Assembly: GCA_038257155.1 (NCBI GenBank)
Contig: JBBSJP010000015.1
Span: forward strand, 31,542 to 95,541
Direction: 5' to 3'
DNA: 64,000 nucleotides
DNA from: Lysobacterales bacterium
Lineage (GTDB): Bacteria; Pseudomonadota; Gammaproteobacteria; Xanthomonadales; Xanthomonadaceae
In this document: positions 7,116 through 58,522 of the stretch, piece by piece
Numbering within the stretch: position 1 is the stretch's first letter
Layout of the letters: each line of letters starts with the position of its first letter
The notes under the pieces: generated by a model
What the model was told of the DNA's origin: nothing
Seen by the model: only the letters and a program-made list of their open reading frames with translations
Database searches by the model: none
Program-made: the position numbers and the translations under genes

Positions 7116-7137
7116 CGAAATCCATTGCACCTGTCAC

Positions 7138-8050: not shown

Positions 8051-8197
8051 GGGCTACTCCGGGGAGCTTTCAGCCACGCTGTCGGGCACATGCCTGAAAG
8101 CGCTGCTGGGAATTCGCGGGTCGGTCAGTGTACCGCCGAGATTGCGTGCTGTCCTGAATTGGACGAGAAATATTCCGCGACGAGCAGCACAAACGTT

Positions 8198-8911: not shown

Positions 8912-9057
8912 GGCGGACAGTGTAACCGCGGCCTGGGGCAGGGCGCGGCATCACGCCGCAGTGCATCCGACAACAGCAGCGCGTTCGCGATGTGCGTTCC
9001 CTTGAACGTGACGCGGTGTGGTCGGCAATCCTTCCAGGTACCGGGCCCGCGGAATCC

Positions 9058-9966: not shown

Positions 9967-10311
9967 TGCTGGATTTGACTGATTCGTGGGTCGGCGCGCG
10001 ATCTCAGGGAGGCTCGTGCAGCGCAATTGTGCGGTGATTACGCATAGCTGCAAGCCTGCTCGGGCAGGTGCTGGCAAGGTGTCGGTTCGATCTTGCTGCC
10101 GAGGATAACGGACTGTCATGCGTAAGGTGCATTCGGATCGGTTCAAAGGGCGATCGGTGCCTTGCAACCAGGCGGTGCCAGGTTGTCGATACGGTCAGCA
10201 GTTCTTGATCCGATCTGGCGGGGGTTCCGGGGTCCGGTGCGGGGTCCCGGGCGAGCTCAGGCCAGCCGGTGACCGACCCCGCCCCGAACCGAACCGTTAC
10301 AGCCAGCGCGC

Positions 10312-13451: not shown

Positions 13452-13756
13452 GGGAAAGCTCCGGAAATCTGCGCGTCGAACGTCGACGCAACCGTGAAGT
13501 CAGTGTCATCAAATGGGGAGTAGGCAGGAATGGGTAAAAACCCCTGCCCCATCAGGGCGGCTTTGCCCAGCGCTAAAATGGAACAGATGGTCGATCCGAA
13601 GGCCGAAACGGGCGGCCGCGCGGTGTCGCCTGGGGGGAAAACCTCAGCTGGGCGGGTATTTCCGCCTAGCGCGCCACGGAATGTGGGCGAACCACTCGAC
13701 GCGCGCGCGACAGGGCTCTAAGGTTGAGAAGTATTTCTTCCTGGTTGGCACTTGTC

Positions 13757-14608: not shown

Positions 14609-15492
14609 AGCAACCGGCCGCTCGGCTGGTCATCCATCTGCGCGGAGAGGCCAGCCAGAGTCACCTGCTTGACGATGATTGCCGGCATCACTTGGGACGC
14701 GACGCCGGGGTCGACATCAGCATCCCGCACCCATCCGTGTCACGTCGGCACGCCGCCCTTGAGCGACGCGATGGCCTCTGGTACCTGCTGGACCTGGGAT
14801 CCAAGAACGGCACCTTAATCGACGGCCGCCCGGTCCAAGAGACGCCCCTGGATGCGCCGACCTGGTTTTCAGTGGGCGACGTGTTCTGTGAATTCCAGCC
14901 ACTCAGCGCAACCGCACTGACCCGTATTCGCGAAACCGCCGCCACCCGACGGCATTCGTCGGCAGCCTGGCACGCTCGCGTCAATGTGCGACGCGGCATC
15001 GAGACCCTGCTTGCGGATGTCCTTGAGGGCGCCATCGACATCGCACAATGCCGTAGAGGCGTACTTCTGACTGGCATCAAGTCGGGCTCGCTCGACGTGG
15101 CTGCGGCTTTTTCACCGCCCGGAGAGGATCCTGCAGCCGCGCCGGAATGGAGCCGGACTGCCGTGGAGCGGGTCCTGCGTGAACGACGCCCTGTCTACCT
15201 GTCGAGTCAATCCGATCGCGCCTGGCTCAAGAACGCAGCTTCGGTCGTGGGGCAGGGGCTACGCTCACTGGCCTGCCTTCCGCTACTTTGCAGCGGGCGC
15301 CTGCTGGGCGTGCTCTATGTCGACACCGATGAATCGGCCAAAGTGTTCGATCAGCTGGATGTCGAACTGCTCGATGCGTTCGCCGAACGGGCCGCGTCCG
15401 CATTGGCACTGGCCGATATTGAACACACACTGCGCGCTATCGAGGCCGATGCCCTGATCGTCGCGCCGACGCCCAAGGGAATGCAGACGTGA
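14605..15492 (+). CDS. FHA domain - GAF domain protein
   Basis: N-terminal FHA signature (GRDAGVDISIPHPSVSRRHAALERRDGLWYLLDLGSKNGTLIDGRPV). C-terminal GAF-like fold (LACLPLLCSGRLLGVLYVDTDE). 4-nt overlaps on both sides. Confidence 0.75.
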   Translation: MKQPAARLVIHLRGEASQSHLLDDDCRHHLGRDAGVDISIPHPSVSRRHAALERRDGLWYLLDLGSKNGTLIDGRPVQETPLDAPTWFSVGDVFCEFQPLSATALTRIRETAATRRHSSAAWHARVNVRRGIETLLADVLEGAIDIAQCRRGVLLTGIKSGSLDVAAAFSPPGEDPAAAPEWSRTAVERVLRERRPVYLSSQSDRAWLKNAASVVGQGLRSLACLPLLCSGRLLGVLYVDTDESAKVFDQLDVELLDAFAERAASALALADIEHTLRAIEADALIVAPTPKGMQT

Positions 15493-40300: not shown

Positions 40301-42736
40301 GTTGAGCTGGTCCTGGTCGGTGAGTCGCTCGCTGCGCCGCGGCAGGCCTTCCAGGATGCGGATGGCGGCATCGTGCACGCCCTGCGCCTTGCGCTGGCGT
40401 TCGTCGAGCAGCGCCTGGCGCTGGCCCTCGAAGGCTTCCAGCACTTCCTCGCGCTTGGCCAGGATGTCGCCGAGGAACTGCTCGTGCTCGCCGAACTGGC
40501 TTTCCAGTTCTTCCAGTTGCACCAGCACGCGCGCCAGTTGTTCCTCGCAGGCTTCCGGCTCGCGTGCCTGCGACAGGGCGCTGGCGACACTCTGGCCAAA
40601 CAGCTGGAACTGCGCGCCGAACTGCGCCACGGCCTCCGATGAGCCGAGTGATTTGCGTCGTTGCTCGGCGCGCGCGCGGGCCTGGTTGAGGCGGGCATAC
40701 AGTGCCGAGATCGCCTCGACCACGCGGGTGCGTTCGGCCGCGTCTTCGACCGGCAGGCTGCCCATCAGGTTCGACAGCATGTCGAGATCGGAGCCCAGGT
40801 CAGCCAGGCCCTTGAGCGGCTCGCGCAGCTGACCACCGCTGCTGGCGGCCTGCGCCTTCGTATCCAGCGCAGTCAAACGGTCGCCGAGCGGTGTCAGCGC
40901 GGCGGGACTGGCGACGAAGCTGCCAGTGGCCTGGCCGGTGCGCTGCTGCGCCTCGAGCAACTCGGCCTCCATCGCGTCGATGGCGGCCACGTCGATGTAG
41001 CGGAAGTCGCGGATCGTCAGCAGGCGGCCGCGCAACGCGGCGATGCCGTTCAGCGCGTCGACGTAATCCTGCACCTTGTCCCAGCGCTCGGGCTGCAGCG
41101 ACTTCAGCAGTGCAGCCTGCTGCGTGCGCGCTTCAGTCAGGGCCTGCTCGGACTGACGCCGGATGCTGACGACTTTCTCGTACTCGTCGAGCACCTGTTC
41201 GCTGGTCGCGGCGATCTCGCGCACCAGGCTGGCGGCGCCCTGGCAGTTGCTGTCGTCGACCCAGTGGTGCAGGTCGAACAGGCGACGGGTCTCGGCCACC
41301 AGGCGCTCGAAGCGCTGCGCCGAGATGTCGGTCGATTCGATTTCGCGCGCCACGCCGAGCAGGTCGGACAGGCCGCGTACCAGTTCGGCATTGCCGATCT
41401 TGCCCATGAAGCTGGTGCGCGGCGGCTGGCGCGCGGCGAACTCTTCGGTGGTGAAGGGCGTTTGCCAGATCTGCATCGGATGCACGCGCGTGGCTTCGGC
41501 GCTCTCGGCGCTGAACACCACCATGCGGCCGTCCTCCATCATGGCGTAGCCATGCGCGAAGATCGGCGTCTGCAGGCGACGCTGGATCAGGTTGTAGGTG
41601 AACAGCGCGAAGCGGCCTTCCTCGGGCTCGTAGAACACGTACAGCACGTCTTCGCCATTCGGCGAACGCAGCACGCGCTTGAAACCCATGCCGTCCATCG
41701 AGCGTTCGAAGCGGCGGTACTCGCCGTTCTGCAGCACATAACCGCCGGGGAACACGATGCCGTGGTCTTCCGGCAACTGGATGCAGGCCGCGCCGATGGC
41801 ATCAATGCGCAACACGCTTTGCGTGATGCGGTTGTAGACCAGGTAGCGCCAGACCTCTTCGCGATAGGGCAGCACCCGCAGCAGGATGAGGCTGCCGACC
41901 TGGGCGAACTCGACGATCGCGTCGTCGAGCGACTGGGTCTTGTCGGCAACTGGCTCGCGGTACACGCCGAGGCCGTCTTCGGTGTTGTTCTCGACCTTGA
42001 CGGTGAGGTCGCCGGCAACGGTCTCGACGAACACGGTGTCGAGGATGTTCAGATGCGGGTGGCGGCCGTGCACCGCGTGCTCGCGCGTGCAGCGTGTCCA
42101 CTCGAAGTCATAGGCCGGCGGCGGCGCGATGTCGCGTTCGCCGCGGTTGTCGATGTAGCGGATCTGGCTGCCGTCGGACGAGACGTTCCAGCGAAACACG
42201 CGCACATCGGTCAGGCGCTCGCCGATCTGGAAGCTGGCCAGCAGCTTGCCCTGCCGCACCACCAGCTGCAGCAGGCGGGTGTGCTTGTAATAGGCGTACA
42301 GCTCGCGGAAATCGTTGCGGAAATCGGGCGCATCGAGAAAGCTGCCCGCGACCGGCACTGGCTCGCCTTCGAAGCCCTCGCCCTCCTCTTTCAGGCGATA
42401 GAGCGAGAACACATCCTCGACAACGGTTTCCTTCTTCAGCCCGATGAAGACGTTGTAGCCGAACAGCAGCAGATGCCCGACCTGCACGATATCGCGCGCC
42501 GCACAGTTGTTCTCGGTGCGCACCCGCAGCCGCCCGGCGACAGCCATCTCGCTGCTGCCGAACTCGGCCAGGCGCTGGGTGTTGAGCGCATCGACCACAC
42601 CCGCAAGCCGCGAGCCCTGTTCAACCAGGCGCTTGTGCAGCACTTCGTAAGCGCCACCTTCGGTGACGGCGCGGTCGACATTGCTGGTATCGGGGGTGGG
42701 GTTGGTCATGGGGCGAGTTTCAAACGTGTGAGACAT
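37340..42736 (-). CDS. Giant (1798 aa) protein with a single central AAA+-like P-loop ATPase module and extensive helical regions
   Basis: Uninterrupted 5.4-kb ORF. Walker A LISPPGYGKTTLMEYV, Walker B-like MLYVDDIQH, sensor-like VVMAGNP. Long helical Glu/Arg/Leu-rich stretches. No signal peptide. Confidence 0.85.
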   Translation of the reverse strand: MSHTFETRPMTNPTPDTSNVDRAVTEGGAYEVLHKRLVEQGSRLAGVVDALNTQRLAEFGSSEMAVAGRLRVRTENNCAARDIVQVGHLLLFGYNVFIGLKKETVVEDVFSLYRLKEEGEGFEGEPVPVAGSFLDAPDFRNDFRELYAYYKHTRLLQLVVRQGKLLASFQIGERLTDVRVFRWNVSSDGSQIRYIDNRGERDIAPPPAYDFEWTRCTREHAVHGRHPHLNILDTVFVETVAGDLTVKVENNTEDGLGVYREPVADKTQSLDDAIVEFAQVGSLILLRVLPYREEVWRYLVYNRITQSVLRIDAIGAACIQLPEDHGIVFPGGYVLQNGEYRRFERSMDGMGFKRVLRSPNGEDVLYVFYEPEEGRFALFTYNLIQRRLQTPIFAHGYAMMEDGRMVVFSAESAEATRVHPMQIWQTPFTTEEFAARQPPRTSFMGKIGNAELVRGLSDLLGVAREIESTDISAQRFERLVAETRRLFDLHHWVDDSNCQGAASLVREIAATSEQVLDEYEKVVSIRRQSEQALTEARTQQAALLKSLQPERWDKVQDYVDALNGIAALRGRLLTIRDFRYIDVAAIDAMEAELLEAQQRTGQATGSFVASPAALTPLGDRLTALDTKAQAASSGGQLREPLKGLADLGSDLDMLSNLMGSLPVEDAAERTRVVEAISALYARLNQARARAEQRRKSLGSSEAVAQFGAQFQLFGQSVASALSQAREPEACEEQLARVLVQLEELESQFGEHEQFLGDILAKREEVLEAFEGQRQALLDERQRKAQGVHDAAIRILEGLPRRSERLTDQDQLNAFFAGDPLVLKLRDLAERLRGLKDNVKADDVESRLKAARDQALRALRDRSELFDAGGETLRFGRHRFSVNRQELDLTLMPREDGLYLHLTGTDYLQALHDPELDAARDYWAVDLESESATLYRGEYLAGCVLEAAEAGSDGWSMSELERLALQPDGLQQRLRDFASARYREGYEKGIHDHDASLILSALLPLRAQAGSLRYAPDDRALALLGWSELINSHKQSATWPERARAARRMRELFGHGGGGLALRNELAQALEAFALERGLPLDGVHLKRAADYLQHELAAEHVQFHFSKYAAQLAKALRERLETAHAWHELQDTLKRLDGRLDARWNLLLGWLDALLGDTELGALRDYRNEAAALLLLGESLPNRIAQADLRTEVAGLLGVHARIQDGRLALALDDFEARFEHHRHAFLPGLKQYHAQRHARLERERESMRLGEFKPKPLTAFVRNRLISEVYLPIIGDNLAKQMGTVGEGKRSDLMGLLLLISPPGYGKTTLMEYVAHRMGLNFMKINGPALGHAVHSLDPAQAPDATAARELEKLNLALAMGNNTMLYVDDIQHTHPEFLQKFISLCDGTRRIEGVWQGKTRTFDLRGKKFCVVMAGNPYTESGEVFKIPDMLANRADVYNLGDVLGGMQEAFAMSYVEICLTSNPILAPLATRQMSDVYKLIAKAEGKAFSANELAHTYSAAEIGEIEAVLRRLMQVRDTVFRVNQQYIASAAQDDDYRTEPPFRLQGSYRNMNKLAEKLSPAMNDADIEQVLRDHYQGEAQLLTAGAEENLLKLAELLGRQTDVEKARWEQILRDYRRNKSMGGADSDVGVRVVGQLHDLVEGVRGLSSLGAAQGAQAETGQHVVARLDLLAQALRELADASTQRGAEPASADDVAANSEHWPALIDLLQRIASEQALARTFSRDTATESAMWLGGLRSALEVGFRPLVDEIRARNEGRGEQQKLLTTIATRLDLLISGLRDKAGGTPAPRKPAAK

Positions 42737-43105: not shown

Positions 43106-45064
43106 CTATTCCTCCCCACCCTTCTTCGGCACCTTGCGCTTGCCCTCATCCCCATCGCTCTTGCCCAGATACTTCGCCAACAAGTCCTGCACGATTGGAC
43201 TTTTGCCGGCAATGCCTTCGATCGCCTTGCCCACCGACAGCGACCTGGCAAAGGAATTGAAGAAGTCGCCCTCGCCGCCAACGATGTCGATCTTGGCCTT
43301 GGACAGCGCCGCCGACAGCACTTCGGCCTGTTCGCGTGCGATGTCCTTGCTGGCATCGATCGAGGCAATCGCCTGCTCGAAGTTCTTTTCGAGCTGCATG
43401 CGGAATTCCTCGTGGGTGCGGGCACCGTCGTCGAGCTTGGATAGCGCATCAAACTTCTCGGTGAGGCCCTTGGCCTCGGCCTGGAACTTCTGCAGCAGCA
43501 CATCGGCCTCGGCCGTGCCCTGCTTGCGCCAGGCCTCGGCCTTGGCTTCGGTGACGCGAGCCTGGGAAAGGCCCTTCTCCTGTTCGCCGCGCGCTTCAGC
43601 CATCAGTTGCTCTTCGAGCGACTTTGCTTTGGCCAGTCCCTCGCGTTCGGTCGCCGCGGCGCCAACCTCGCGCACCCGCGCATCGGCCAGGCCCGGCGCG
43701 GCGCGCTCGGCCTCGGTGCCTTCGGCCATCTTCTTCTTGCCCTCGGACTGCTTGCCTGCGGCTTCCAACTCGGCTTGCGCCAAGGTGGTGATCTCGATCG
43801 CCTTGTGCTTGGCCTTTTCCTCGTCGGCCTCGGCCTGCTTGACCTGGCGCACCAGTTCTTCTTCGGCCATCGCCTGGGCATTGAGGATCGCGACCTGCTT
43901 GGCGCGATCGGCAAAGGAAACTTCGCGAACTTCCTTGATGCGCTCCTCTTCCTGCGCCACGGATTTCTCCACCACGATGCGCTCGCGGATCACCCCGGCG
44001 ATGATCTGGCGCTGTTCTTCCAGGGCTTTTTCCTTTTCGATGCGCTGCAGCTCGACTTCACGTTCCCGGGCCACCTGCTCCAGGGCCTTGGCGCGGGCCA
44101 CCTTCTCGACTTCGATCACCACCGCGCGCTGACGGTTCTGCTGCGCCACTTCCACTTCGCGTTGGCGGTTCTCTTCGCGGATCTCGATGGTTTCCTGGGT
44201 CTGGATGCGGGCCTGCTCGGAACGCAGGCGCTCTTCCTCCTGAACCTTCTTGGTTTCGGCCTGTTCGCGCGCCTGGATGGTTTCGATCTCGCGCTTCTGG
44301 CGCGCCTCGGCGTCGGCCTGCTGGCGCTCCAGCGCCAGGGTCGCCTCGCGCGTCTCGACGTTCTTCTTCTTCATCGCCAGCTCTTCGTTGCGCTCGAGCT
44401 CGTTGGTGATGACGTTCTGCGCGGCGGTCAGCTCGGTGATCTTGCGGATGCCCTCGGCATCGAGGATGTTGTTGGGATCGAGCGAGGACTTCGGCGTCTG
44501 CTCCAGGTAGTCGATCGCCACGTCTTCCAGCACGTAGCCGTTCAGATCGTTGCCGATCACTTCCACGATGCGGTCGCGGAATTCCTGGCGGTTCTCGAAC
44601 AGCTTGACGAAGTCGATCTTCTTGCCGACCGTCTTCAGCGCCTCGGAGAACTTGGCATTGAACAGTTCGTTCACCGCGCCCTTTTCCGAGGCGCGATCCA
44701 CGCCGATCGCCTTGGCCACTTTCAGCACGTCCTGCTGGGTCTCATTGACGCGCAGGTAGAACGCCACCGTGATGTCGGCGCGCATATTGTCCTGGCAGAT
44801 CAGCCCATCCTTGCCGCGCCGGTCGACCTCCAGCGTGATCAGGGAGATCTTCATGAACTCCTTCTTGTAGACCACCGGGTACACCAGGGCGCCGGTGAAG
44901 TGCACCTTGGGAGTGGAAGACAGGTCGTTGACGATCAGCGCGGTGCCCTGCGGGACCTTGATGTAGAAGGCCTTGAACAGGGCGAACAGGCCCACGATCA
45001 CGACGACAACAACGCCAAGTCCGATCAGGAACGGCATCAGGAAGGCAAGATCCATGGCAAACAC
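43106..45064 (-). CDS. Flotillin-like SPFH/band-7 protein (YqiK-like) with extended coiled coil
   Basis: N-terminal TM hairpin (LAFLMPFLIGLGVVVVVIVGLFALF). SPFH domain (YIKVPQGTALIVNDLSSTPKVHFTGALVYPVVYKKEFMKISL...). ~350 aa EA/EQ/K-rich coiled coil. Confidence 0.85.
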   Translation of the reverse strand: MFAMDLAFLMPFLIGLGVVVVVIVGLFALFKAFYIKVPQGTALIVNDLSSTPKVHFTGALVYPVVYKKEFMKISLITLEVDRRGKDGLICQDNMRADITVAFYLRVNETQQDVLKVAKAIGVDRASEKGAVNELFNAKFSEALKTVGKKIDFVKLFENRQEFRDRIVEVIGNDLNGYVLEDVAIDYLEQTPKSSLDPNNILDAEGIRKITELTAAQNVITNELERNEELAMKKKNVETREATLALERQQADAEARQKREIETIQAREQAETKKVQEEERLRSEQARIQTQETIEIREENRQREVEVAQQNRQRAVVIEVEKVARAKALEQVAREREVELQRIEKEKALEEQRQIIAGVIRERIVVEKSVAQEEERIKEVREVSFADRAKQVAILNAQAMAEEELVRQVKQAEADEEKAKHKAIEITTLAQAELEAAGKQSEGKKKMAEGTEAERAAPGLADARVREVGAAATEREGLAKAKSLEEQLMAEARGEQEKGLSQARVTEAKAEAWRKQGTAEADVLLQKFQAEAKGLTEKFDALSKLDDGARTHEEFRMQLEKNFEQAIASIDASKDIAREQAEVLSAALSKAKIDIVGGEGDFFNSFARSLSVGKAIEGIAGKSPIVQDLLAKYLGKSDGDEGKRKVPKKGGEE

Positions 45065-45133: not shown

Positions 45134-45760
45134 TCAGGCGGCGTGCTTGGCGATCACGCGGTAGGCATTCTGCAGCGTCAGGTATTCCACTAGTACCACT
45201 TCGTCACCGCGTGAGAATTGGCCAGGGTCAGCGCGGACCTGCAGGACCAGTCCTGCACCGCCGTCCTCCAGATTCGCGGTTCCCTGCGAATCGGTGACAT
45301 GAGGGCTGCGCACGATGGCGATCTTGCCGAGCAGGGATTCGCTGTCGGTGGGCTTGAGCTTGGCAAATAACGGTGACAGCGGGCGCAGTGCCAGGCCGGT
45401 GATCGGCATGGCAACAACAACAGCGCCCAACAGCAGGCCGGAACCGAGGGCATAGCGCATCACTCCGGTGCCCAGGTGCTGCAGCAGGAACAGGTCGACG
45501 AAGTAGGTGAGCAGCCAGCCAAAAAATATGAAGCCGGTAGCGATCAAGGTCACCGGCACCCCATCCAGGCCCCATTTCATCAGCAGGCCGGCAACACCGC
45601 CAACATCCAGATCCATACCGTCCGGCATGGGCGCGAAATTCAGGATCTCCAGATCGATCAGGCCGATCATGGCCATCATCCAATAGATCACCGCCACCGC
45701 CAGCAGAACGCTGAAAACCACGGTGGGAAATGAAAGCGCGATTTGCAGGAACTCGTCCAT
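45134..45760 (-). CDS. YqiJ/NfeD-like inner-membrane protein (flotillin partner)
   Basis: Start MDEFLQIALSFPTVVFSVLLAVAVIYW. Multiple TM helices then a C-terminal OB-like segment (GKIAIVRSPHVTDSQGTANLEDGGAGLVLQVRADP...GDEVVLVEY). 69 bp upstream of the flotillin gene. Confidence 0.7.
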   Translation of the reverse strand: MDEFLQIALSFPTVVFSVLLAVAVIYWMMAMIGLIDLEILNFAPMPDGMDLDVGGVAGLLMKWGLDGVPVTLIATGFIFFGWLLTYFVDLFLLQHLGTGVMRYALGSGLLLGAVVVAMPITGLALRPLSPLFAKLKPTDSESLLGKIAIVRSPHVTDSQGTANLEDGGAGLVLQVRADPGQFSRGDEVVLVEYLTLQNAYRVIAKHAA

Positions 45761-45918
45761 GGTTCGAAGGCCCCCCGACGGCGTCTTTACGTTCCGAGAC
45801 AGCTGGAAGGATAGGCAATAGCGGCGCCGCGCGCCATGTCCCGGAGGGCAGGCTTGGTTTTCGGCTCGCCTGCCCCAAGAGATTTCGGTTACCCGTGGCT
45901 GAAACTGACTACCCATCC

Positions 45919-51927: not shown

Positions 51928-52893
51928 ATGAACGAAAGCACGCACGATGGACAGGTTGTCGAGGCCGGGCGCACGCTTGCACAGGCGGTGATCCAGGATC
52001 GAATGGAGGTGCTCAAGCGGGGGGCCTCACCCGGCGTAACAATGGCGGCACCTGGCGGGGCAGTCACGCTGGAAGCTCGGTCCGTCGGACCCGCAGGCCG
52101 CATCGCCATGGCCGCGGCTCGTCCCCGCGGATACCTGATTGCGGAAGGCGACAGCTGGTTCGACTACCCGCGGTCCGACGTGCTGGATGTACTGGAAGAC
52201 GACCACGGTTATCGCGTGGAACGTTTGGCACACGGCGGGGACACAGTTGAAGACATGGCATTCAACGAGTCGCAGATCGGCGCACTGGCAAAGCGCTTCG
52301 AGCGACTTCTTCAGGACCGCAGGCCGGTCGATGCGGTACTTCTGTCGGGCGGCGGCAACGACATCGCCGGCAACGAGTTCAGCATGTTGTTGGAGCACGC
52401 CAGTTCGGGCAAGGCAGCCATCAACGCGGTAATCGCCGAGCAGGTGATCTATGGGCGCATCCGGGACGCCTTCCTTCGGATCATCGGTACTGTGAACGCG
52501 ATCTCCGAAGCCTACCTGGATCGTCATGTGCCCATCATCCTCCACGGCTATGGCTATCCCGTGGCCGACGGTCGCGGGTTCCTGGGAGGCGCCTGGTTTC
52601 TGCCCGGTCCATGGCTTGGCCCAGGCTTCGAACGCAAGGGGATTAGCGATTCGATTGTCCGCCGCCAGGTTATGCGAAGCCTGATGGACGACTTCAACGC
52701 AATGCTCTCTGCTCTGACGAGCGTGCCCGATCTCGATGGCGTGGTGAGTTACGTCGACCTTCGCGATCTGCTGTCCGACGACCTGGCGAACTATCGTGAC
52801 GATTGGGCGAACGAATTGCACCCGACGCAGTCAGGTTTTCGTCGAGTGGCGGCAAGCATCGCAGCCGAAGTTGAACGACGCACCGAAAGCTGA
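51928..52893 (+). CDS. SGNH/GDSL-family hydrolase without signal peptide
   Basis: ATG 51928. GDSx block LIAEGDSWFDYP, GGGND block (VLLSGGGNDIAGNEF), C-terminal DxxH-like block (WANELHPT). 321 aa. Confidence 0.7.
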   Translation: MNESTHDGQVVEAGRTLAQAVIQDRMEVLKRGASPGVTMAAPGGAVTLEARSVGPAGRIAMAAARPRGYLIAEGDSWFDYPRSDVLDVLEDDHGYRVERLAHGGDTVEDMAFNESQIGALAKRFERLLQDRRPVDAVLLSGGGNDIAGNEFSMLLEHASSGKAAINAVIAEQVIYGRIRDAFLRIIGTVNAISEAYLDRHVPIILHGYGYPVADGRGFLGGAWFLPGPWLGPGFERKGISDSIVRRQVMRSLMDDFNAMLSALTSVPDLDGVVSYVDLRDLLSDDLANYRDDWANELHPTQSGFRRVAASIAAEVERRTES

Positions 52894-52969
52894 TCGCCGC
52901 TGCGTCCTGACGAAAGCCTTGCAGTTCTTTCGTCCAGTTCCATCACCCAGACGCTGACTGGACACTGCG

Positions 52970-55318
52970 ATGAAGAAGCGAGCCACTCCGAAAGACAAGC
53001 CCGCAAAACCGGTCGTTGCGAAATCGACCGCTGGCAAGGTTTCTGGCAAGGCAGCACCGGCCAAGAAGACAGCGGGAAGGATTGCGCCCAAGCCGTTCAG
53101 CGGCGTCAAGGGCTTGCAGAAGCAGGCGATAGTCGAGGCGTTGGCGAGCCAATTGCTCAAAGCCTCCAAAGCCATAGTCCAGACCTTGGCGGTCGCGGGT
53201 CGAAAGAGCGACGTGCGTTCGTTGGTGGTCGGGCCGCTCGACATGGCGAGGTTTGGCAAGGACGCGCGACTGGTCCTGAACCTGGATTACCGAATCCTGC
53301 CGTCGGGCAAAGTGAGCCTTGAGGATTCCGAGTCTCTGCGTCCGTCGGTACAGGTGCTTGAGGGAGACGATTGGAGCGACCTTCCCGCCCAGGTGACGTC
53401 ATATCTTGCTGACACTGCGGCCTCGTCTCCGGTGTTCGCGATGTCCGATGTCGATTCTGGCGTTGAGGCCGAGTCCGACGATACCCGCGAATCCATGCCC
53501 TTGCCCGCGGTGGCAAAGCTTTGTACCCGTATCGGTACCAGTGCGCCGGCCACGATCGAGCAACTGGTAACCTCCGATGTGGCGGTGGCCGCGTCGATGG
53601 ATCCGCGCCTTCAGCTGGTGATGCTCAATCGTCGCAGCGGCAAGCACTCCGCCGCGACGTCCTCGACCGGCGAGGGCGAAGTTGCTGTGATCGCGAAAGT
53701 CACGGATGCAGATGCTTGGATCGAAACGGATGATGTATTCACGGGTGCCGATCTTGGCCCGGCACCCGACGGCGCACACATAGTGACCGCACGGATTCCG
53801 ATCCGGCGGATCGCGGAGATTCGGCGCCTGCCCTTCGTCCAGAGTTTGAAAGCCTCGTATCCCGTTCGCGGGCAGCTGAGAGCGACCCTCAGCGCCATGG
53901 ACGCGTCGTCGCGGGCACTCGGGCCGCGCGATCCTGACGGCGGCGCTGGGGTTGTCATCGGGATAGTGGACTTCGGCGGTGATTTCGCGCACCGCAACTT
54001 CCGTCATGTCGATGGTACAACGCGGCTGCTGGCCTTGTGGGATCAGAGCGGTGAGTCCAACGCCGACAGCCCCTTCGGCTACGGTCGCGTCTTCTGGCCA
54101 GACCAGATCGACGCGGCACTGTCCACGCCACATCCTCACTCGGCCTTGGGATATCGCCCGGAAGCCCTGGCGCATGGCACGCACGTGATGGACATTGCGG
54201 GCGGCAACGGAGAGGGAACGGGATTGCCAGGCCTTGCGCCAAAGGCTGACCTCATCTTCGTGGAAGCGGCTGCGTCCGATGTGGAATGGGAGGGACCGGA
54301 TGGTGTCGGCCAACACTTCGGCGATTCGGTGCAGATACTGGAAGCGGTACGCTGGATCTTCGATCAGGCGGGTGACCGGCCCTGCGTGGTCAACCTCAGC
54401 CTGGGCACGAACGGTGGCCCGCACGACGGAACCTCCCTGGTAGAAATCGGGCTGGACGCGATGTTGGGCGAGGCACCCAATCGAGCCATCGTGGTCTCTG
54501 CGGGCAACGCCCAGGAGGACGGCGTGCATGCGATGGACACGATTCCTGCCGAGGGTCAGTACGACCTGCACTGGCGAGTCGATCTGCCAGGCGAATGCGA
54601 ACTCGAGCTGTGGTACCCGGGCGCGGAGCGATTGACTGCCAGCCTGATCGCCCCGAATGGACAGGAGTTGCTGCAGGTCGCGCCGGGCGATTCCCGATCC
54701 TTGACCACGCCGGGTGGCAAACCGGCGGTTTTCGCTGCCAACCGTTTGCATGATCCCAACAACGGCGACAACCTCATCGGGATCTGGCTCTCCGGAGGTT
54801 TGCCTGCGGGGCAATGGACACTCAGGCTGACGTCTTCTTCAACGCGGACTGTCGCGTTCCATGCATGGATCGAGCGCAATGACGAGGCGCAGGCGAGCTT
54901 CGTCAATCCAACGGTCTCGCACCTGCTGGGCTCGATTTCGACTGGCCGGAACACCCTCGTGGTTGGATCTTTCGATGCGCACAAGAAGGCCTTGCCGATC
55001 TCGCGTTTTTCCGGCTCAGGGCCCACCCGCGATGGGCGAGAGAAGCCGGAGCTCTCCGCGCCCGGCCACAATGTGTCGGCAGCCCGCTCGCGAACCCGTA
55101 CTGGCCTCACCCGAATGTCAGGCACCAGCATGGCAGCGCCGGCCGTTTCCGGACTGGCAGCTCTGGTGCTTGCGAAAGCCGCGCGAGTGGGACAATCGCT
55201 CTCGGCGGCTGAGCTTGGAAGGCAGGTGCTCGCCAACCTCGCGAAGCACCCGCAGGTGGCTGCCAACGCCTGGCACCCACAGTTTGGTGCCGGCCTTGCC
55301 TCCGGCGACGCCGTCTGA
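52970..55318 (+). CDS. S8 subtilisin-family serine peptidase with Lys/Ala/Pro-rich N-terminal tail; no signal peptide
   Basis: Catalytic triad regions VVIGIVDFGGD (Asp), ALAHGTHVMDIAGG (His), SGTSMAAPAVSGLAALV (Ser). N-terminus MKKRATPKDKPAKPVVAKSTAGKVSGKAAPAKKTAGRIAPKP. Confidence 0.85.
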   Translation: MKKRATPKDKPAKPVVAKSTAGKVSGKAAPAKKTAGRIAPKPFSGVKGLQKQAIVEALASQLLKASKAIVQTLAVAGRKSDVRSLVVGPLDMARFGKDARLVLNLDYRILPSGKVSLEDSESLRPSVQVLEGDDWSDLPAQVTSYLADTAASSPVFAMSDVDSGVEAESDDTRESMPLPAVAKLCTRIGTSAPATIEQLVTSDVAVAASMDPRLQLVMLNRRSGKHSAATSSTGEGEVAVIAKVTDADAWIETDDVFTGADLGPAPDGAHIVTARIPIRRIAEIRRLPFVQSLKASYPVRGQLRATLSAMDASSRALGPRDPDGGAGVVIGIVDFGGDFAHRNFRHVDGTTRLLALWDQSGESNADSPFGYGRVFWPDQIDAALSTPHPHSALGYRPEALAHGTHVMDIAGGNGEGTGLPGLAPKADLIFVEAAASDVEWEGPDGVGQHFGDSVQILEAVRWIFDQAGDRPCVVNLSLGTNGGPHDGTSLVEIGLDAMLGEAPNRAIVVSAGNAQEDGVHAMDTIPAEGQYDLHWRVDLPGECELELWYPGAERLTASLIAPNGQELLQVAPGDSRSLTTPGGKPAVFAANRLHDPNNGDNLIGIWLSGGLPAGQWTLRLTSSSTRTVAFHAWIERNDEAQASFVNPTVSHLLGSISTGRNTLVVGSFDAHKKALPISRFSGSGPTRDGREKPELSAPGHNVSAARSRTRTGLTRMSGTSMAAPAVSGLAALVLAKAARVGQSLSAAELGRQVLANLAKHPQVAANAWHPQFGAGLASGDAV

Positions 55319-55392
55319 GACTGAATCCTTGCTGGCCGCGGAAATTGCACCTGCGTTCGGGGGCGCGTAACGTGGTGCCTGAGGTGACCTGC

Positions 55393-55653
55393 ATGCCCAT
55401 TGATCTTGCCCAACTGATCCTGAGTGATAGTGATACGGAGTCCTCGCCGAGGCTTGGCAGCGGGCGTTTTCATGCCGTGCTGCGACTCCATCACGGCGAG
55501 TCCGTGCCCGAATATGTGCACGTTCGCAGCAAGATTGCCGAAGAATTGTTAACCATCGATTTTTCCGCAGAGGATCTGGATCGCATCACGAATGATCCAC
55601 GGGTGATTTCGGTCGCCCTGGCCAAGCCACTGCAGGCGTTCTCCGAAGGCTGA
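55393..55653 (+). CDS. Small protein resembling a subtilisin propeptide / I9 inhibitor, encoded separately
   Basis: ATG 55393. 86 aa ending ...EELLTIDFSAEDLDRITNDPRVISVALAKPLQ, an I9-like beta-alpha-beta pattern. 74 bp downstream of the S8 gene. Confidence 0.45.
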   Translation: MPIDLAQLILSDSDTESSPRLGSGRFHAVLRLHHGESVPEYVHVRSKIAEELLTIDFSAEDLDRITNDPRVISVALAKPLQAFSEG

Positions 55654-55904
55654 GATTGCTGTTTCACTTCCCGATCCAGGCGGAGGGCATTTCCAGGCGG
55701 TGCCCCGGGTAACCGCTTGCCAGCGGCTCGGCGGAAATCAAACCGAGGCACGCAGACGCCGACCAGACCTGATGCGGCAACTGCTCCTGATGTTCGCGCT
55801 GGGCCTGAGTCGGGCGTTCGCGGGTTCTGGCTCGCGAAGCGATAAACGGAGAAGATGGACGGAGACAGGGCATCCGCCATGTCGATCTTGTTGTGCTGAT
55901 CGAA

Positions 55905-56768
55905 TCAAGGCGGGTCAGCCACCACAGTGTACGGCCGGTCGGGACTGGGCCAGTCTTCCTCACGGTAGCGCAGTGCTTCGAGCGCCTCATGCGCTGCGTT
56001 CAACTCGTTTTCCAACCCGCAGATACGCTCGACCGCGGCACTCACGGATGCGGCTGCTTCCAGCGCCTTGTCGAGAAGAATTTGCACGTCCGTTGATTGC
56101 ACGGCATCAACGCGAAATTCGGCATCGCCGTGGCGCAGGCCCGTCAGGCTCCGCACCAACATCGCGACGTCGCGTCCGCAGTTCCAGAAACCGCCGTCCA
56201 CGCGTCCGATCGTGTCGATATCCACCAGTGTGCCCGGCCAGTCCGGAATCAGGTGGGCCAGGAATTCGAGGCGGTGGACCAGAAACAGGGAGCGGACATC
56301 GCCCTCGCTCTTGAGCAGTGTTCTGGCGATTTCATCGAGGAGAGAGCGGATCGTCAAGGAAGCGAAGCTGACCTCGTTGGAAGCCAAGGCCAGCTTGATC
56401 AGCGCGTTGCGGGACGCCAACAGTCGCTCGATCTCCTGCCGCTGTTCCGACCATCGTTTGGCCGTCAGCGCGATGGCGGCGCGACCCGCCGCGTCTGGCT
56501 GACGCCACTTGGCCAAGCCTGACCCTTCCGGTTCGACAAGCGCCGCCATTCGCGCGTCGATTCGATCGCGACGGGACTCAAGCGCTTCCATCGCCTCTTC
56601 GTCGCCTTCTGCGGCTTGGCGAGCCTCCTTCTCCAGATGCATCAGGTGGTAGTGAACTTCATGAAGTCCGGCGTCCTGATCGCTGCCAGGTGAGCAGGCA
56701 AGCAAGGCGAGACACAGCAGGCAGGTCACGAGGCGACGGACGCCAGGCACTGACACTTCCAACTTCAT
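55905..56768 (-). CDS. Hypothetical lipoprotein (paralog A)
   Basis: Lipobox LLCLALLACS. Helical protein. Confidence 0.6.
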   Translation of the reverse strand: MKLEVSVPGVRRLVTCLLCLALLACSPGSDQDAGLHEVHYHLMHLEKEARQAAEGDEEAMEALESRRDRIDARMAALVEPEGSGLAKWRQPDAAGRAAIALTAKRWSEQRQEIERLLASRNALIKLALASNEVSFASLTIRSLLDEIARTLLKSEGDVRSLFLVHRLEFLAHLIPDWPGTLVDIDTIGRVDGGFWNCGRDVAMLVRSLTGLRHGDAEFRVDAVQSTDVQILLDKALEAAASVSAAVERICGLENELNAAHEALEALRYREEDWPSPDRPYTVVADPP

Positions 56769-57586
56769 GGCGTGGTGCTCCGTTCCGCATTCGAAGTTGA
56801 AGCAATGAGGCGCTCCACGCCAGCATCGACGGACTCGCGCGAGTCATGCATGGCGGGCATCCAGGGCGCCGAGTCCAGGATCGTGCCGATCAGGGGCACG
56901 ATCTGTCGGTGTTCGGCCAGCACCTCAGCCAGGGCGGCTCGCGACCTGGGTCCGCTGATCTGCCGCAGCCCGCGCTCTTCGTCGCCGCTTTCCAGTGCCG
57001 GCAGCAGCATGCCGAGGATGGTCCAGCTTCGCTCCAGTCCCCAGTGGTGGCCGTCGGTTCCACGGATCTCGCCGGTGCGAATGTCGACGAAGTAGGCGGT
57101 CAGCGACTTTGCCATTCTGGCGAGTTCCATGGCCGCGAAGATCTGCCGTGGTTCACCCTGCTCGTGCAGCAGTTGATTGACCAATTCATGCGACGAGTAT
57201 TCGAGCCGTTGCAGGGCTTTCGTCGCCGTATCGCAGGCAGCCGCGAGGGCGATCAGGTCGGACCTCCTGGCCAGCAGAGCGTCGACATGCAATCGAACAG
57301 CCTTCCATTGCAGCTCAAGGTCAGCAGGGCCCATGGCGGGGAATGACTTTGCCAACGCCCATTGCAGATCATCGGCATCGGGCGACCGCACCTGGCCAGC
57401 GAGCAACGACTCTATCCGCTCGCGCCGCAAGGGCAGCGCTCGCAGGGCTGCCTCATCGCCAAGGCTTGCGTCGTGCACTTCCTGCTTCAGACGCAACAAC
57501 TGGTAGCGCAGTTCGCCGATCTCGGGACTTCGGTCGGGGTGCGGTGCACAGCCTGTCAGCGACAAGCCAAGCAAAAACCAGAGCAT
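56765..57586 (-). CDS. Hypothetical lipoprotein (paralog B; start 57586 or 57670)
   Basis: Lipobox MLWFLLGLSLTGC. Shares architecture and motifs with the downstream paralog (LKQEVHDASLGDEAALRALPLRRERIESLLAGQV vs LEKEARQAAEGDEEAMEALESRRDRIDARMAALV). 4-nt overlap with it. Confidence 0.6.
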   Translation of the reverse strand: MLWFLLGLSLTGCAPHPDRSPEIGELRYQLLRLKQEVHDASLGDEAALRALPLRRERIESLLAGQVRSPDADDLQWALAKSFPAMGPADLELQWKAVRLHVDALLARRSDLIALAAACDTATKALQRLEYSSHELVNQLLHEQGEPRQIFAAMELARMAKSLTAYFVDIRTGEIRGTDGHHWGLERSWTILGMLLPALESGDEERGLRQISGPRSRAALAEVLAEHRQIVPLIGTILDSAPWMPAMHDSRESVDAGVERLIASTSNAERSTTP

Positions 57587-57810
57587 GTTGGCCAGATTGG
57601 CGCGCGCGAGCGTGTACAGGGGCGGCAGTTCGACGACTGGCGTACGCGAAAGTCCGTTCCTGTCAGTCATGCAATTCGTGCCTCCAATATCGCTTGGGCG
57701 GACCAGGGCGCTGGGCGCGCTACCGCACAGATGCGGCCCGCATGTCAGTCCATGATTTGTCGACGATGCCGCTGGTGGGTGCAGTGTCGCCGCCGTACCC
57801 GGAGACCGCA

Positions 57811-58116
57811 ATGCGCAAAGTTTTGCTCATTCCGCTGTTGATTCTCATCCCGCTTTCCGGAGTGCAGGCGCTGTCGAGCAGTGGCACCACGCCGGGCGCC
57901 AGCGTGCTGCATGGCGGGCTGGCTCGATGGAGCAGCGCTGAGGTGCAGGAGTGCGATATCCACGACCAGAACACCAATGCTGTCGCCATTCTCGGTGACC
58001 CAGCGCGACTTGCGAGCATCGGTGAGACAGCACCGCAACGGCCGTCTGCGGAAGTCGGTGTGCTCAAGTCCGAAGCCGAGCGCGTCGCAGCCCAGGACGT
58101 TTGCGACAACGAGTGA
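57811..58116 (+). CDS. Small secreted hypothetical protein
   Basis: ATG 57811. Signal peptide MRKVLLIPLLILIPLSGVQA. 101 aa. Confidence 0.5.
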   Translation: MRKVLLIPLLILIPLSGVQALSSSGTTPGASVLHGGLARWSSAEVQECDIHDQNTNAVAILGDPARLASIGETAPQRPSAEVGVLKSEAERVAAQDVCDNE

Positions 58117-58195
58117 GAGCACGGGGAGACATCCTCGAATCGGCTCACGACACCTTTTGCAGAACGCAATCAATTGAGTTTCCGGGAGACACACA

Positions 58196-58522
58196 GTGAA
58201 CAAACCACCCAAGAAGCGCGCCGACTTCAGTCGCGTAAGCTCAACCGTCAGCAGCACTGAGAAGACCAAGGCGGATTTTGGCAATGTCCGCGCCAGCGTG
58301 AACTCCACTGAGTTCACGACGGACCGCATAGAGACGCCCCATCGGACCTACACGGTTGTCAGCGGCGACTCGCTGTCACGCATCGCCTTGCAGGTGTACG
58401 GCAAGGCGAGCCGCTGGCCGGCGATTTTCGAGGCCAACCGCGATCAGCTAAGCGACCCTGACCGGATCCAGCCCGGACAGGTGCTGAAACTGCCTGACAT
58501 CGACGACCAGTCCGACGTCTGA
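58196..58522 (+). CDS. LysM peptidoglycan-binding domain protein
   Basis: C-terminal LysM (YTVVSGDSLSRIALQVYGKASRWPAIFEANRDQLSDPDRIQPGQVLKLP). GTG start. Confidence 0.7.
   Translation: MNKPPKKRADFSRVSSTVSSTEKTKADFGNVRASVNSTEFTTDRIETPHRTYTVVSGDSLSRIALQVYGKASRWPAIFEANRDQLSDPDRIQPGQVLKLPDIDDQSDV

What the first reader, a model, noticed from the sequence alone, without database searches (positions are those of the whole stretch)
52970..53900. Histone-H1/AlgP-like Lys-Ala-Pro tail on an S8 protease
The first ~45 residues (KKRATPKDKPAKPVVAKSTAGKVSGKAAPAKKTAGRIAPKP) resemble KPAA/AKK repeats of bacterial histone-like proteins. They are followed by an I9-like segment (VTARIPIRRIAEIRRLPFVQSLKASYPVR) ahead of the catalytic Asp. 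A nucleoid- or polyanion-binding tether on a subtilase is unusual.
Basis: seen in the sequence. Interest (0 to 1): 0.5.

Follow-up and report, generated by a model that had tools for sequence, protein, structure and literature searches.

The report
Conserved lysine-rich tail on Csp-like protease
The lysine-rich stretch is the genuine, disordered N-terminus of a cytoplasmic spore-protease-like (Csp-type) subtilase. About half of its 120 closest relatives carry a similar basic tail, so it is probably an electrostatic tether to DNA or another polyanion, but this is untested.

Summary
ORF 52970..55318(+) encodes a 782-aa S8 protease whose first 42 residues carry 11 Lys, 2 Arg, 9 Ala, 6 Pro and 1 Asp (net +12). 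The ATG is the first possible start.

Two details are wrong. There is no KPAA/AKK repeat, only compositional bias. The "I9-like segment" lies about 230 residues downstream (aa 272-300), not next to the tail.

The tail is not a start-codon artefact:
- 63 of the 120 best homologues begin with a comparable basic head.
- In one clade with 92% identical cores, tail sequence drifts to 67% identity. Thirteen basic columns, 12-13 K+R, almost no acidic residues (one in one of ten members) and tail length stay fixed.

The protein is a CspB-like subtilase: prodomain, intact triad D334/H405/S720 and a beta-sandwich insert. It has no signal peptide.

It sits in a conserved operon with an 86-aa free-standing propeptide-like protein. 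Most tail-bearing relatives add a DrmC-like PLD protein.

Best reading: a sequence-independent polyanion tether, probably to DNA and analogous to the FrzCD tail, on the prodomain side of a latent protease. The tail's existence and conservation are shown; its function is inferred.

The parts
52970..53095 (+). Polycationic N-terminal tail, aa 1-42 (K11 R2 A9 P6 D1; net +12), predicted disordered
   Evidence: Sequence and composition. pLDDT < 50 for aa 1-49. No repeats. No Pfam match. Analogous tails in 63/120 homologues with conserved charge.
53114..53194 (+). Predicted helix aa 49-75, moderately amphipathic and basic (aa 43-100 net +6)
   Evidence: AF2 secondary structure with pLDDT about 58. 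Hydrophobic moment 0.4-0.49.
53219..53419 (+). Low-confidence small beta module aa 84-150, shared with the 775-aa subfamily and with fragment P0220
   Evidence: AF2 model. N-terminal alignment. Exhaustive search finds only P0220.
53417..53503 (+). Acidic disordered linker aa 150-178 (aa 101-205 net -12)
   Evidence: Charge profile. pLDDT < 50.
53585..53869 (+). Prodomain-like (subtilase propeptide fold) domain aa 206-300.
   Evidence: High pLDDT beta-alpha-beta fold. Foldseek matches to Csp proteins including their prodomains and to pro-subtilisins. Conserved columns D211, R213 and others. No Pfam I9 sequence match.
53942..55318 (+). S8 catalytic domain with triad D334 (53969-71), H405 (54182-84), S720 (55127-29), oxyanion N513, and a beta-sandwich insert aa 520-650 (54527-54919), to the stop codon
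   Evidence: Pfam PF00082 6.5e-29. Invariant triad in a 60-sequence alignment. CspB best solved relative by sequence (E 1.3e-28). CspB best by fold (TMt 0.80).
55393..55653 (+). Conserved downstream partner gene: 86-aa free-standing subtilase-propeptide-like protein (candidate trans-inhibitor or chaperone)
   Evidence: Found directly downstream in at least 60 of about 85 loci. hhalign to the S8's own prodomain gives Prob 78%, E 1.9e-5. AF2 beta-beta-beta-alpha-beta. Foldseek top hits are subtilase propeptides (2z58_B TMt 0.70). No Pfam match, all members 'hypothetical'.
51928..52893 (+). GDSL/SGNH-like hydrolase gene 77 nt upstream on the same strand. Possibly co-transcribed, but this neighbour is specific to this locus.
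   Evidence: Pfam Lipase_GDSL_2 1.2e-9. Called as 321 aa. No signal peptide. Absent beside the S8 gene in all other loci.

Best explanation
The Lys/Ala/Pro-rich stretch is the true, translated N-terminus of a cytoplasmic Csp-type subtilase. It is an intrinsically disordered polycationic tail (+12 over 42 residues) on an otherwise acidic protein (net -9). Selection maintains its charge, length and low hydrophobicity rather than its sequence.

Inferred mechanism:
- The tail acts as a sequence-independent electrostatic tether to a cellular polyanion. Nucleoid DNA is the most probable target; RNA or polyphosphate are alternatives.
- It would work in the way the ~30-residue basic N-terminal tail of FrzCD docks that protein on the nucleoid.
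- The tail lies on the prodomain side of the expected autoprocessing junction (about aa 300-325). It would therefore anchor the prodomain-inhibited (latent) enzyme rather than the free catalytic domain.

The protease belongs to a conserved two-gene module with a free-standing propeptide-like protein, which is most likely a second, trans-acting inhibitor or chaperone. In most tail-bearing relatives a DrmC/MkoB-like PLD-family protein follows. The module sits in mobile or conflict-gene-rich contexts. This suggests a regulated proteolytic switch rather than a housekeeping protease.

Shown: the tail is real, disordered and conserved in charge. The Csp-like architecture and intact triad are shown. 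The conserved partner with a propeptide fold is shown.
Inferred: polyanion or DNA binding, inhibition by the partner, and any defence role.
For: Start and translation:
- The ATG at 52970 is the first start after an in-frame TGA.
- It lies 77 nt after the upstream gene's stop.

Family trait:
- 63 of the 120 best homologues have net >= +5 in their first 40 aa (median +9; mean K 6.9 and R 3.8). The N-terminal consensus is M-A-x-K-K.
- Several DNA-level loci show the basic head beginning exactly at an internal MAxKK.

Selection on charge:
- In ten 775-776-aa relatives the cores are 92% identical and the tails 67% identical.
- Their 13 basic columns are 95% K/R.
- Each has 12-13 K+R; nine of the ten have no Asp/Glu (P0062 has one) and the tail alignment has no indels.

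Composition across the 63 tails:
- Lys is enriched 7.9-fold over the cores, and Ala is 21%.
- FILMWY residues are 6.3% versus 19.4% in the cores. This is the DNA-binding H1-like type rather than a membrane anchor.

Rarity: 0 of about 620 other long ORFs in the loci have such a head.

Structure and location:
- pLDDT is < 50 for aa 1-49.
- There is no signal peptide or transmembrane segment.
- A basic tail followed by an acidic region matches the layout described for FrzCD, where deleting residues 7-27 abolishes DNA binding and nucleoid localisation. FrzCD's tail also varies in sequence but stays positive (PMC5716589).

Context:
- A PLD-like protein with DrmC/MkoB-like HKD domains follows the partner in 7 of 10 tail-bearing loci with enough flank. 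It is absent from the Zn-ribbon types and from the genuinely short-headed types: 0 of 6 Zn-ribbon loci, and the only two 'short' rows that scored positive (L004, L090) are basic-headed loci mislabelled by the script.
- Neighbours include Septu PtuA, bpMoxR and CHAT genes and transposases.
Against: - No binding assay exists for any member of this family.
- The tail has only 13 basic residues and no repeats. It is far shorter than AlgP or H1 tails.
- 57 of 120 homologues lack a strong tail. They have short, Zn-ribbon or other heads, so the tail is not needed for catalysis or folding.
- This window lacks the PLD gene and has a lipase-like GDSL gene instead. That fits a membrane target as well as a DNA target.
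- No close relative of this particular protein is available (best 58% identity). Conservation of this exact tail therefore cannot be measured.
- The Shine-Dalgarno sequence before the ATG is weak (GGA).
Confidence: 0.5

Rival explanations
1. Anionic-membrane tether. The polybasic tail and the following amphipathic helix dock the protease on phosphatidylglycerol- or cardiolipin-rich inner-membrane surfaces. There it acts with lipid-directed partners (a GDSL-like hydrolase here, PLD-family proteins elsewhere).
For: - Helix aa 52-79 has a hydrophobic moment of 0.4-0.49.
- The upstream gene is GDSL-lipase-like.
- The PLD superfamily includes phospholipases.
Against: - The tails are almost devoid of aromatic or hydrophobic residues: FWY 0.9% and FILMWY 6.3%.
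- The helix is not conserved across tail-bearing homologues.
- The PLD proteins match nuclease-type defence families DrmC/MkoB rather than phospholipase models.
- The GDSL neighbour is unique to this locus.
Confidence: 0.17
2. Regulatory or autoinhibitory disordered extension with no external polyanion target. The basic tail would pair with the protein's own acidic linker (aa 101-205, net -12) or with the acidic partner protein. Alternatively it serves as a handle that is clipped or degraded during activation.
For: - Basic (+12, +6) then acidic (-12) blocks are arranged in series.
- The tail is attached to the prodomain, the part that is removed or degraded in subtilase activation (established knowledge of subtilases).
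- The N-terminal region is the most variable part of the family.
Against: - The acidic linker is not consistently present. The mean net charge of the region after the tail in tail-bearing homologues is +2.9.
- Strict conservation of 12-13 positive charges with almost no acidic residues is typical of binding to an external polyanion.
- This role is not exclusive of the tether role.
Confidence: 0.15
3. Export or host-targeting signal. The tail would direct unconventional secretion (as for the signal-less subtilase PopC). Alternatively it acts as an NLS-like signal (KKRATPK) in a eukaryotic host, given the many rhizobial plasmid homologues.
For: - PopC is a subtilase without a signal peptide that is nevertheless exported, and it is held back by a co-encoded protein, PopD (PMC6434023).
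- Homologues lie on Rhizobium, Sinorhizobium and Agrobacterium plasmids.
Against: - The family is widespread in free-living soil and water metagenomes and in Acidobacteria, Nitrospira and Bacillus.
- No secretion-system genes are conserved nearby.
- The neighbours are intracellular conflict-type genes.
Confidence: 0.06
4. Annotation artefact or neutral low-complexity sequence. The true start would be downstream (for example TTG at codon 50 or ATG at codon 92) and the Lys-rich frame would be untranslated.
For: - The Shine-Dalgarno sequence at 52970 is weak.
- The GC3 signal over 42 codons is not decisive: 0.64 versus 0.56 and 0.61 in the other frames.
Against: - Independent gene calls in dozens of genomes give the same kind of head.
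- Charge columns are conserved at 95% while neighbouring columns drift, without frameshifts or indels.
- A Lys-rich open frame in 65% GC DNA is very unlikely by chance.
Confidence: 0.03

Closest known systems
Clostridial germination subtilases CspB / CspA / CspC (PDB 4i0w, 6mw4, 9pr8)
   Same: - CspB is the best solved relative by sequence (E 1.3e-28 over aa 325-734) and by predicted fold (TMt about 0.8).
- Both have an N-terminal prodomain, an S8 core and a beta-sandwich (jellyroll) insert between His and Ser.
- Both lack a signal peptide.
- The catalytic triad is intact, as in CspB.
   Different: - Identity is only 17-24%.
- The protein scores far below the NCBIfam cut-offs (101 bits against 1250).
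- The GC-rich host (about 65% GC) is unidentified, and the close homologues that carry organism names are mostly from non-sporulating Pseudomonadota such as Rhizobium, Mesorhizobium, Sphingomonas and Variovorax.
- No SleC-type substrate gene is nearby.
- It carries an extra ~205-residue N-terminal region, including the basic tail.
- It is paired with a separate propeptide-like gene.
FrzCD chemoreceptor N-terminal basic tail (Myxococcus xanthus; PMC5716589)
   Same: [quoted passage not shown]
- The sequence varies between species but the positive charge is kept.
- It sits on a protein whose main function is not DNA-related.
- In FrzCD it is shown experimentally to bind DNA non-specifically and to localise the protein on the nucleoid.
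   Different: - The attached domain is unrelated (MCP signalling versus protease).
- There is no sequence homology.
- DNA binding is not tested for the subtilase tail.
Histone H1-like / AlgP / Hc2 / mycobacterial Ku and HupB lysine-rich tails (KPAA, PAKKA, AKKA repeats)
   Same: - The composition is K/A/P-rich with very few acidic or hydrophobic residues.
- Some homologues do carry true AKKA-type runs, for example P0036 MAVKKAAKKVAARKAVKKAAKKAAKKATKK....
   Different: - The window's tail is short (42 aa) and non-repetitive.
- It matches no family model.
- It is N-terminal on an enzyme rather than forming the body or C-terminus of a nucleoid protein.
Free-standing subtilase propeptide-like inhibitors (MEROPS I9-type, e.g. 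the Plasmodium SUB1 propeptide-like protein, PMC6993865; yeast PBI2 and Pleurotus POIA1 from my own knowledge) and the PopC/PopD pair (PMC6434023)
   Same: A small separate protein with a propeptide fold, or a co-encoded inhibitor, controls a subtilase. Here the 86-aa gene is conserved directly downstream.
   Different: - The partner has no sequence match to Pfam I9.
- Inhibition is not tested.
- The protease also keeps its own cis-prodomain.

Membership tests
Peptidase S8 (subtilase), catalytically active | Match to the S8 profile above threshold | tested here: met
   PF00082 E 6.5e-29, 101.6 bits against a cut-off of 21.8.
Peptidase S8 (subtilase), catalytically active | Asp-His-Ser triad in that order, plus the oxyanion Asn | tested here: met
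   D334, H405, S720 and N513 are invariant in a 60-sequence alignment.
Csp-type germination subtilases (CspB/CspBA/CspC) | Prodomain + S8 core + jellyroll insert architecture | tested here: met
   AF2 model. Foldseek top hits are 4i0w, 9pr8 and 6mw4 with TMt 0.77-0.80. CspB is the best PDB sequence hit.
Csp-type germination subtilases (CspB/CspBA/CspC) | Score above the NCBIfam family cut-offs (equivalog-level membership) | tested here: not met
   NF040809: 101.5 bits against 1250. NF040808: 73 bits against 675.
Csp-type germination subtilases (CspB/CspBA/CspC) | Acts in spore germination by cleaving pro-SleC, in an endospore former | not testable with these tools
   The window's host could not be identified. 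Most named close homologues come from non-sporulating Pseudomonadota, and no SleC-like neighbour was seen.
Histone H1-like / AlgP-type lysine-rich repeat proteins | Tandem KPAA / AAKP / AKKA-type repeats | tested here: not met
   TRF finds no array at 52900-53600, and no periodicity is visible in the 42 residues.
Histone H1-like / AlgP-type lysine-rich repeat proteins | K/A/P-dominated, acid-poor composition | tested here: met
   K11, A9, P6 and D1 in 42 aa. Family-wide Lys enrichment is 7.9-fold.
Histone H1-like / AlgP-type lysine-rich repeat proteins | Binds DNA or polyphosphate | not testable with these tools
   Needs EMSA, anisotropy or in vivo localisation.
Peptidase inhibitor I9 (subtilase propeptide), for aa 206-300 and for the 86-aa partner | Sequence match to Pfam Inhibitor_I9 | tested here: not met
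   No hit at E <= 10 for either sequence.
Peptidase inhibitor I9 (subtilase propeptide), for aa 206-300 and for the 86-aa partner | Propeptide fold (beta-alpha-beta sandwich ending in a strand that leads into the active site) | tested here: met
   - The S8 prodomain has high pLDDT and is covered by the Csp and pro-subtilisin matches.
- The partner's top Foldseek hits are Tk-subtilisin, cucumisin, BPN' and furin/PC1 propeptides. They have rmsd about 2-2.5 A over about 60 residues, but weak E-values of 0.03-0.5.
- The partner and prodomain profiles align with E 1.9e-5.
Known anti-phage systems with an S8 protease (Gao_Iet IetS; gasdermin-associated subtilase) | Full-length match to the system's protease model and presence of the partner gene (IetA ATPase or gasdermin) | tested here: not met
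   The IetS hits are fragmentary (E 6.5e-5, about 70 aa). The PADLOC 'subtilase' model matches at 1e-20, but no IetA or gasdermin-like neighbour exists.

The most novel reading that the evidence does not exclude
The basic tail parks a latent Csp-like protease on DNA as the sensor or anchor arm of an undescribed three-component conflict system. The components would be the protease, a free-standing propeptide-like inhibitor and a DrmC-like PLD nuclease. In other loci a different effector, such as the GDSL-like hydrolase here, would take the nuclease's place. Loss of the inhibitor, or contact with invading nucleic acid, would release proteolysis that activates the effector. This would be a proteobacterial counterpart of the CspB to pro-SleC activation logic, reused for defence or abortive infection.
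Probability: 0.15. Interest if true: 0.7.

Novelty: new variant of a known kind. Interest (0 to 1): 0.45.

Why it matters
Csp-type subtilases are known only as spore-germination proteases of clostridia. This locus belongs to a large uncharacterised family, with more than 1,100 hits at E <= 0.001 among the 8,000 candidates scored. Its named members are mostly Proteobacteria, often on plasmids or next to transposases.

Members of the family keep the Csp architecture but have three additions:
- a charge-conserved polycationic tail on the prodomain side;
- a separate propeptide-like gene;
- frequently a defence-type PLD gene.

If the tail tethers the zymogen to the nucleoid, it would be a rare example of spatial control of a bacterial protease by non-specific DNA binding. 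It would also give an experimental handle: deleting the tail, deleting the partner, and testing for toxicity or phage resistance. That would open a candidate new conflict module, for which cultivable hosts such as R. leguminosarum WSM1325 are available.

Tried and rejected
- The genome-contig scan with the single protein returned only 2 loci and did not find the source genome.
- The organism could not be identified. Cluster look-ups for the S8, the partner, Dus and the TraB-like protein gave unnamed singletons.
- The exhaustive phmmer search with aa 1-205 against 1.84e9 representatives found only a 174-aa fragment (P0220, also basic-headed) and a junk repeat. The N-terminal module is therefore not a widespread domain borrowed from other proteins.
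- Pfam on the tails of four family members gave only noise.
- Pfam I9 was not found on the prodomain or the partner.
- BLASTP of the partner against the prodomain was not significant (E 14). Only the profile-profile and fold comparisons link them.
- A word-indexed search with the partner alone found only itself. An alignment query was needed.
- The viral contig scan gave one locus, so this is not a phage family.
- PADLOC on the window's neighbours gave nothing. I therefore do not claim that the window itself is a defence island.
- The promoter and terminator scan was uninformative.
- The Iet and gasdermin-associated systems were considered and rejected because their partner genes are missing.
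- Sec/Tat export was considered and rejected because there is no hydrophobic segment.
Full report
**1. What is at the coordinates**

ORF 52970..55318 (+) encodes 782 aa.
- The ATG at 52970 lies four codons after an in-frame TGA and 77 nt after the stop of the upstream gene. It is therefore the most upstream start possible.
- They contain 11 Lys, 2 Arg, 9 Ala, 6 Pro and 1 Asp, for a net charge of +12.
- The window is 64.6% GC. This is the only lysine-rich basic stretch among the confident ORFs of the window. Other basic stretches there are Arg-rich and mostly belong to over-extended ORF starts.

Two details of the finding do not hold.
- The tail contains no repeat. Tandem Repeats Finder reports nothing at 52900-53600, and no Pfam model matches even at E <= 10.
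- The quoted "I9-like" peptide is aa 272-300 (53783-53869), about 230 residues after the tail.

**2. What the protein is**

- Pfam finds only Peptidase_S8 (E 6.5e-29).
- The best curated and solved relatives are the clostridial germination subtilases. NCBIfam CspBA and CspC match, but far below their cut-offs. CspB (4i0w) is the best PDB sequence hit, with E 1.3e-28 over aa 325-734.
- I predicted the structure with AlphaFold2 from a 60-sequence alignment (pTM 0.75). The model shows the following regions:
  - aa 1-49 disordered (pLDDT < 50);
  - a helix at aa 49-75;
  - a low-confidence small beta module at aa 84-150;
  - a disordered acidic linker at aa 150-178;
  - a confident prodomain-like beta-alpha-beta domain at about aa 200-300;
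  - the S8 core, with a beta-sandwich insert at about aa 520-650.
- Foldseek against the PDB puts CspB, CspC and CspA first (TMt 0.77-0.80). Pro-subtilisins follow.
- D334, H405, S720 and N513 are invariant across the alignment, so the enzyme should be active.
- The protease, the downstream partner and the upstream GDSL-like protein all lack a signal peptide or transmembrane segment. I therefore predict a cytoplasmic location.
- The "I9-like" call is right at the level of fold. It is not supported by sequence.

**3. Is the tail real and more than chance?**

The result is the opposite.

The protein search returned 1,176 hits at E <= 0.001 among the 8,000 candidates scored. They share 50-58% identity from the conserved MDPRLQL motif (aa ~210) onwards. 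Their N-terminal regions do not align with one another. Among the 120 best hits the heads fall into four groups:

| Head type | Number of 120 | Notes |
|---|---|---|
| Basic head | 63 | net >= +5 in the first 40 aa; median +9; mean K 6.9, R 3.8 |
| Other | 31 | several have a shorter basic head followed by acidic residues |
| Short | 17 | start just before the core |
| Cys4 zinc-ribbon | 9 | |

- The consensus start of the basic group is M-A-x-K-K.
- Some members carry true AKKA runs, for example P0036 MAVKKAAKKVAARKAVKKAAKKAAKKATKK....
- In DNA-level loci where the longest ORF over-extends, the basic head begins at an internal MAxKK.

One clade of ten 775-776-aa proteins has the same architecture as the query. 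Its cores are 92% identical and its tails only 67% identical. Even so, the 13 basic columns are 95% K/R. Each tail has 12-13 K+R; nine of the ten have no acidic residue (P0062 has one), and the tail alignment has no indels. This pattern indicates purifying selection on charge and length, as expected for a functional disordered polycation.

Across the 63 tails, Lys is enriched 7.9-fold over the cores (17.7% versus 2.2%) and Ala is 21%. FILMWY residues fall to 6.3% from 19.4%.

As a background, I examined 624 ORFs of at least 250 aa from about 90 related loci. Only three have a head with net >= +9 and K >= 6, and all three are this protease or its homologues.

The specific N-terminal 205 residues of the window protein are nearly an orphan. 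An exhaustive phmmer search over 1.84e9 representatives found only a 174-aa fragment, P0220. That fragment again has a basic head of different sequence.

**4. Surroundings**

*The partner gene.* An 86-aa gene at 55393..55653 follows the protease and has a good Shine-Dalgarno sequence (GAGGTG).
- A profile built from four copies finds it immediately downstream of the protease in at least 60 of about 85 loci. Its sequence identity across loci is only about 30%.
- It has no Pfam match, and every database member is annotated 'hypothetical'.
- Its profile aligns with the protease's own prodomain (hhalign Prob 78%, E 1.9e-5, 62 columns).
- Its AF2 model is beta-beta-beta-alpha-beta.
- Its best structural matches are subtilase propeptides: Tk-subtilisin 2z58_B (TMt 0.70, rmsd 2.1 A), cucumisin, BPN' and furin/PC1. 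The E-values are weak (0.03-0.5), as expected for a 60-residue domain.
- I read it as a free-standing propeptide-like protein, hence a candidate trans-inhibitor or chaperone. The Plasmodium SUB1 propeptide-like inhibitor is a precedent (PMC6993865). The PopC/PopD pair is a looser precedent for a signal-less subtilase held in check by a co-encoded protein (PMC6434023).

*Other neighbours.* Beyond this two-gene unit the neighbours vary.
- In 7 of 10 basic-headed loci with enough flank, a ~535-aa protein follows the partner. It has two PLDc_2 domains, and its HKD region matches the defence nucleases DrmC and MkoB. L004 and L090 are counted as basic-headed by eye, from the N-terminal sequences; the script labelled them 'short' only because it was given their gene starts. 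This protein is absent from the Zn-ribbon types (0 of 6 loci) and from the genuinely short-headed types.
- On R. leguminosarum WSM1325 plasmid pR132503 the order is S8 (head MTKKPTSQSSTKKTSRKK...), an 85-aa partner and a PLD-like protein. A Septu PtuA-like ATPase (E 3e-223) lies close behind.
- Other loci carry bpMoxR, CHAT proteins, or Tn3 and IS66 transposases.
- The window itself lacks the PLD gene. It has instead a GDSL/SGNH-like hydrolase gene 77 nt upstream (51928..52893), which is seen in no other locus.
- GC content dips from about 67% to 60-64% between roughly 52 and 58.5 kb.
- No PADLOC system is detected near the window's gene.

**5. How it most likely works**

*Shown.* The tail is translated, disordered, polycationic, lysine-biased and hydrophobic-poor, and its charge is conserved. 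It sits at the N-terminus of an acidic (net -9), cytoplasmic, catalytically competent Csp-like subtilase. It lies upstream of that enzyme's prodomain.

*Inferred.* The tail is an electrostatic, sequence-independent tether to a polyanion.
- DNA is the leading candidate for three reasons:
  - The composition is of the H1/Ku/HupB type and has almost no aromatic residues.
[quoted passage not shown] That tail binds DNA non-specifically and places FrzCD on the nucleoid (PMC5716589).
  - The gene most often linked to the tail-bearing clade is a nuclease-type PLD.
- In subtilases the prodomain is cut off but, in CspB, stays bound to the enzyme (established knowledge of Csp proteases). The tail would therefore anchor the latent prodomain-enzyme complex. 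The extra propeptide-like protein would add a second layer of inhibition.
- I put about 0.5 on the polyanion-tether reading, with DNA the most likely partner within it.

*Rivals.*

| Rival | Probability | Main points |
|---|---|---|
| Anionic-membrane tether | 0.17 | Supported by the amphipathic helix and the lipase-type neighbour. Weakened by the lack of hydrophobic residues and the non-conserved helix. |
| Purely regulatory or autoinhibitory disordered extension | 0.15 | Supported by the basic-then-acidic arrangement. |
| Export or host-targeting signal | 0.06 | |
| Start-codon artefact | 0.03 | Largely refuted. |

**6. Comparison with known families, and novelty**

- The protein works like a Csp-type subtilase and shares its architecture. 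It is not an equivalog of that family (cut-offs not met; no germination context).
- The tail works, on present evidence, like the FrzCD tail or H1-like tails. It is not a member of the H1/AlgP repeat families (no repeats).
- It does not belong to the known S8-containing defence systems Iet or gasdermin-associated subtilase, because their partner genes are absent.
- My literature searches found no description of this family, its basic tail or its propeptide-like partner. Absence from a partial library is not proof of novelty.
- I rate it a new variant of a known kind: an uncharacterised, widespread Csp-like subtilase clade with a charge-conserved polycationic head and a trans-encoded propeptide.
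- Interest is moderate (0.45). The result is a solid, testable hypothesis, and possibly the entry point to a new protease-based conflict module. A basic disordered tail is not in itself a surprising device.

Noticed in passing
window 55393-55653 (+): An 86-aa gene is conserved directly downstream of the protease across the family. Its predicted fold and profile match subtilase propeptides. It has no Pfam family, and all database members are 'hypothetical'.
   Followed up: yes
window 51928-52893 (+): A cytoplasmic GDSL/SGNH-like hydrolase gene lies 77 nt upstream on the same strand. It is found next to none of the ~90 related loci, so it may be a locus-specific effector or may be unrelated.
   Followed up: partly
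L090 (R. leguminosarum WSM1325 pR132503) 4093-15229; also L004, L015, L019, L023-L026, L028: Basic-headed family members are usually followed by the partner and then a ~535-aa protein with two PLDc_2 domains and a DrmC/MkoB-like HKD region. In L090 a Septu PtuA-like ATPase (E 3e-223) lies just beyond. This may be an undescribed protease, propeptide-like and PLD cassette.
   Followed up: partly
L090 4093-6841 and L045 2818-5542: Two unknown proteins (~545 aa and ~370 aa, no Pfam match) lie immediately upstream of the protease in both loci (56% and 68% identity). L045 also has a bpMoxR ATPase downstream.
   Followed up: partly
L072, L077, L079, L085, L086 (metagenomic loci): A subfamily replaces the basic tail with an N-terminal Cys4 zinc ribbon (M..VICPNCH...C..C). 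It has a 1200-aa TPR-CHAT protein and a sigma-factor-like gene upstream. It lacks a detectable propeptide-like partner.
   Followed up: partly
L092 (Sphingobium fuliginis plasmid p1) 2778-10073: The protease-partner pair sits between a Tn3-family transposase and an IS66 element. The two-gene unit may therefore travel as transposon cargo. This copy has an acidic, Ala/Gly-rich head rather than a basic one.
   Followed up: no
window 37340-42736 (-): A 1798-aa protein carries DUF3686 ('ATPase involved in DNA repair', E 1e-201), DUF7902 and an AAA domain. Two genes without any family match follow it (43106-45064 and 45134-45916). None has a PADLOC hit.
   Followed up: no
window ~52000-58500: GC content drops from about 67% to 60-64% across the GDSL-S8-partner genes and the two unknown minus-strand genes (55905-56768 and 56765-57811, which overlap by 4 nt). 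This is a mild sign of a horizontally acquired segment.
   Followed up: no
L091 (Bacillus cereus plasmid) 5998-9930: A Bacillus homologue (46% identity, short head, no tail) is followed by a second, shorter S8 peptidase and two ~75-aa hypothetical genes, instead of the single partner.
   Followed up: no
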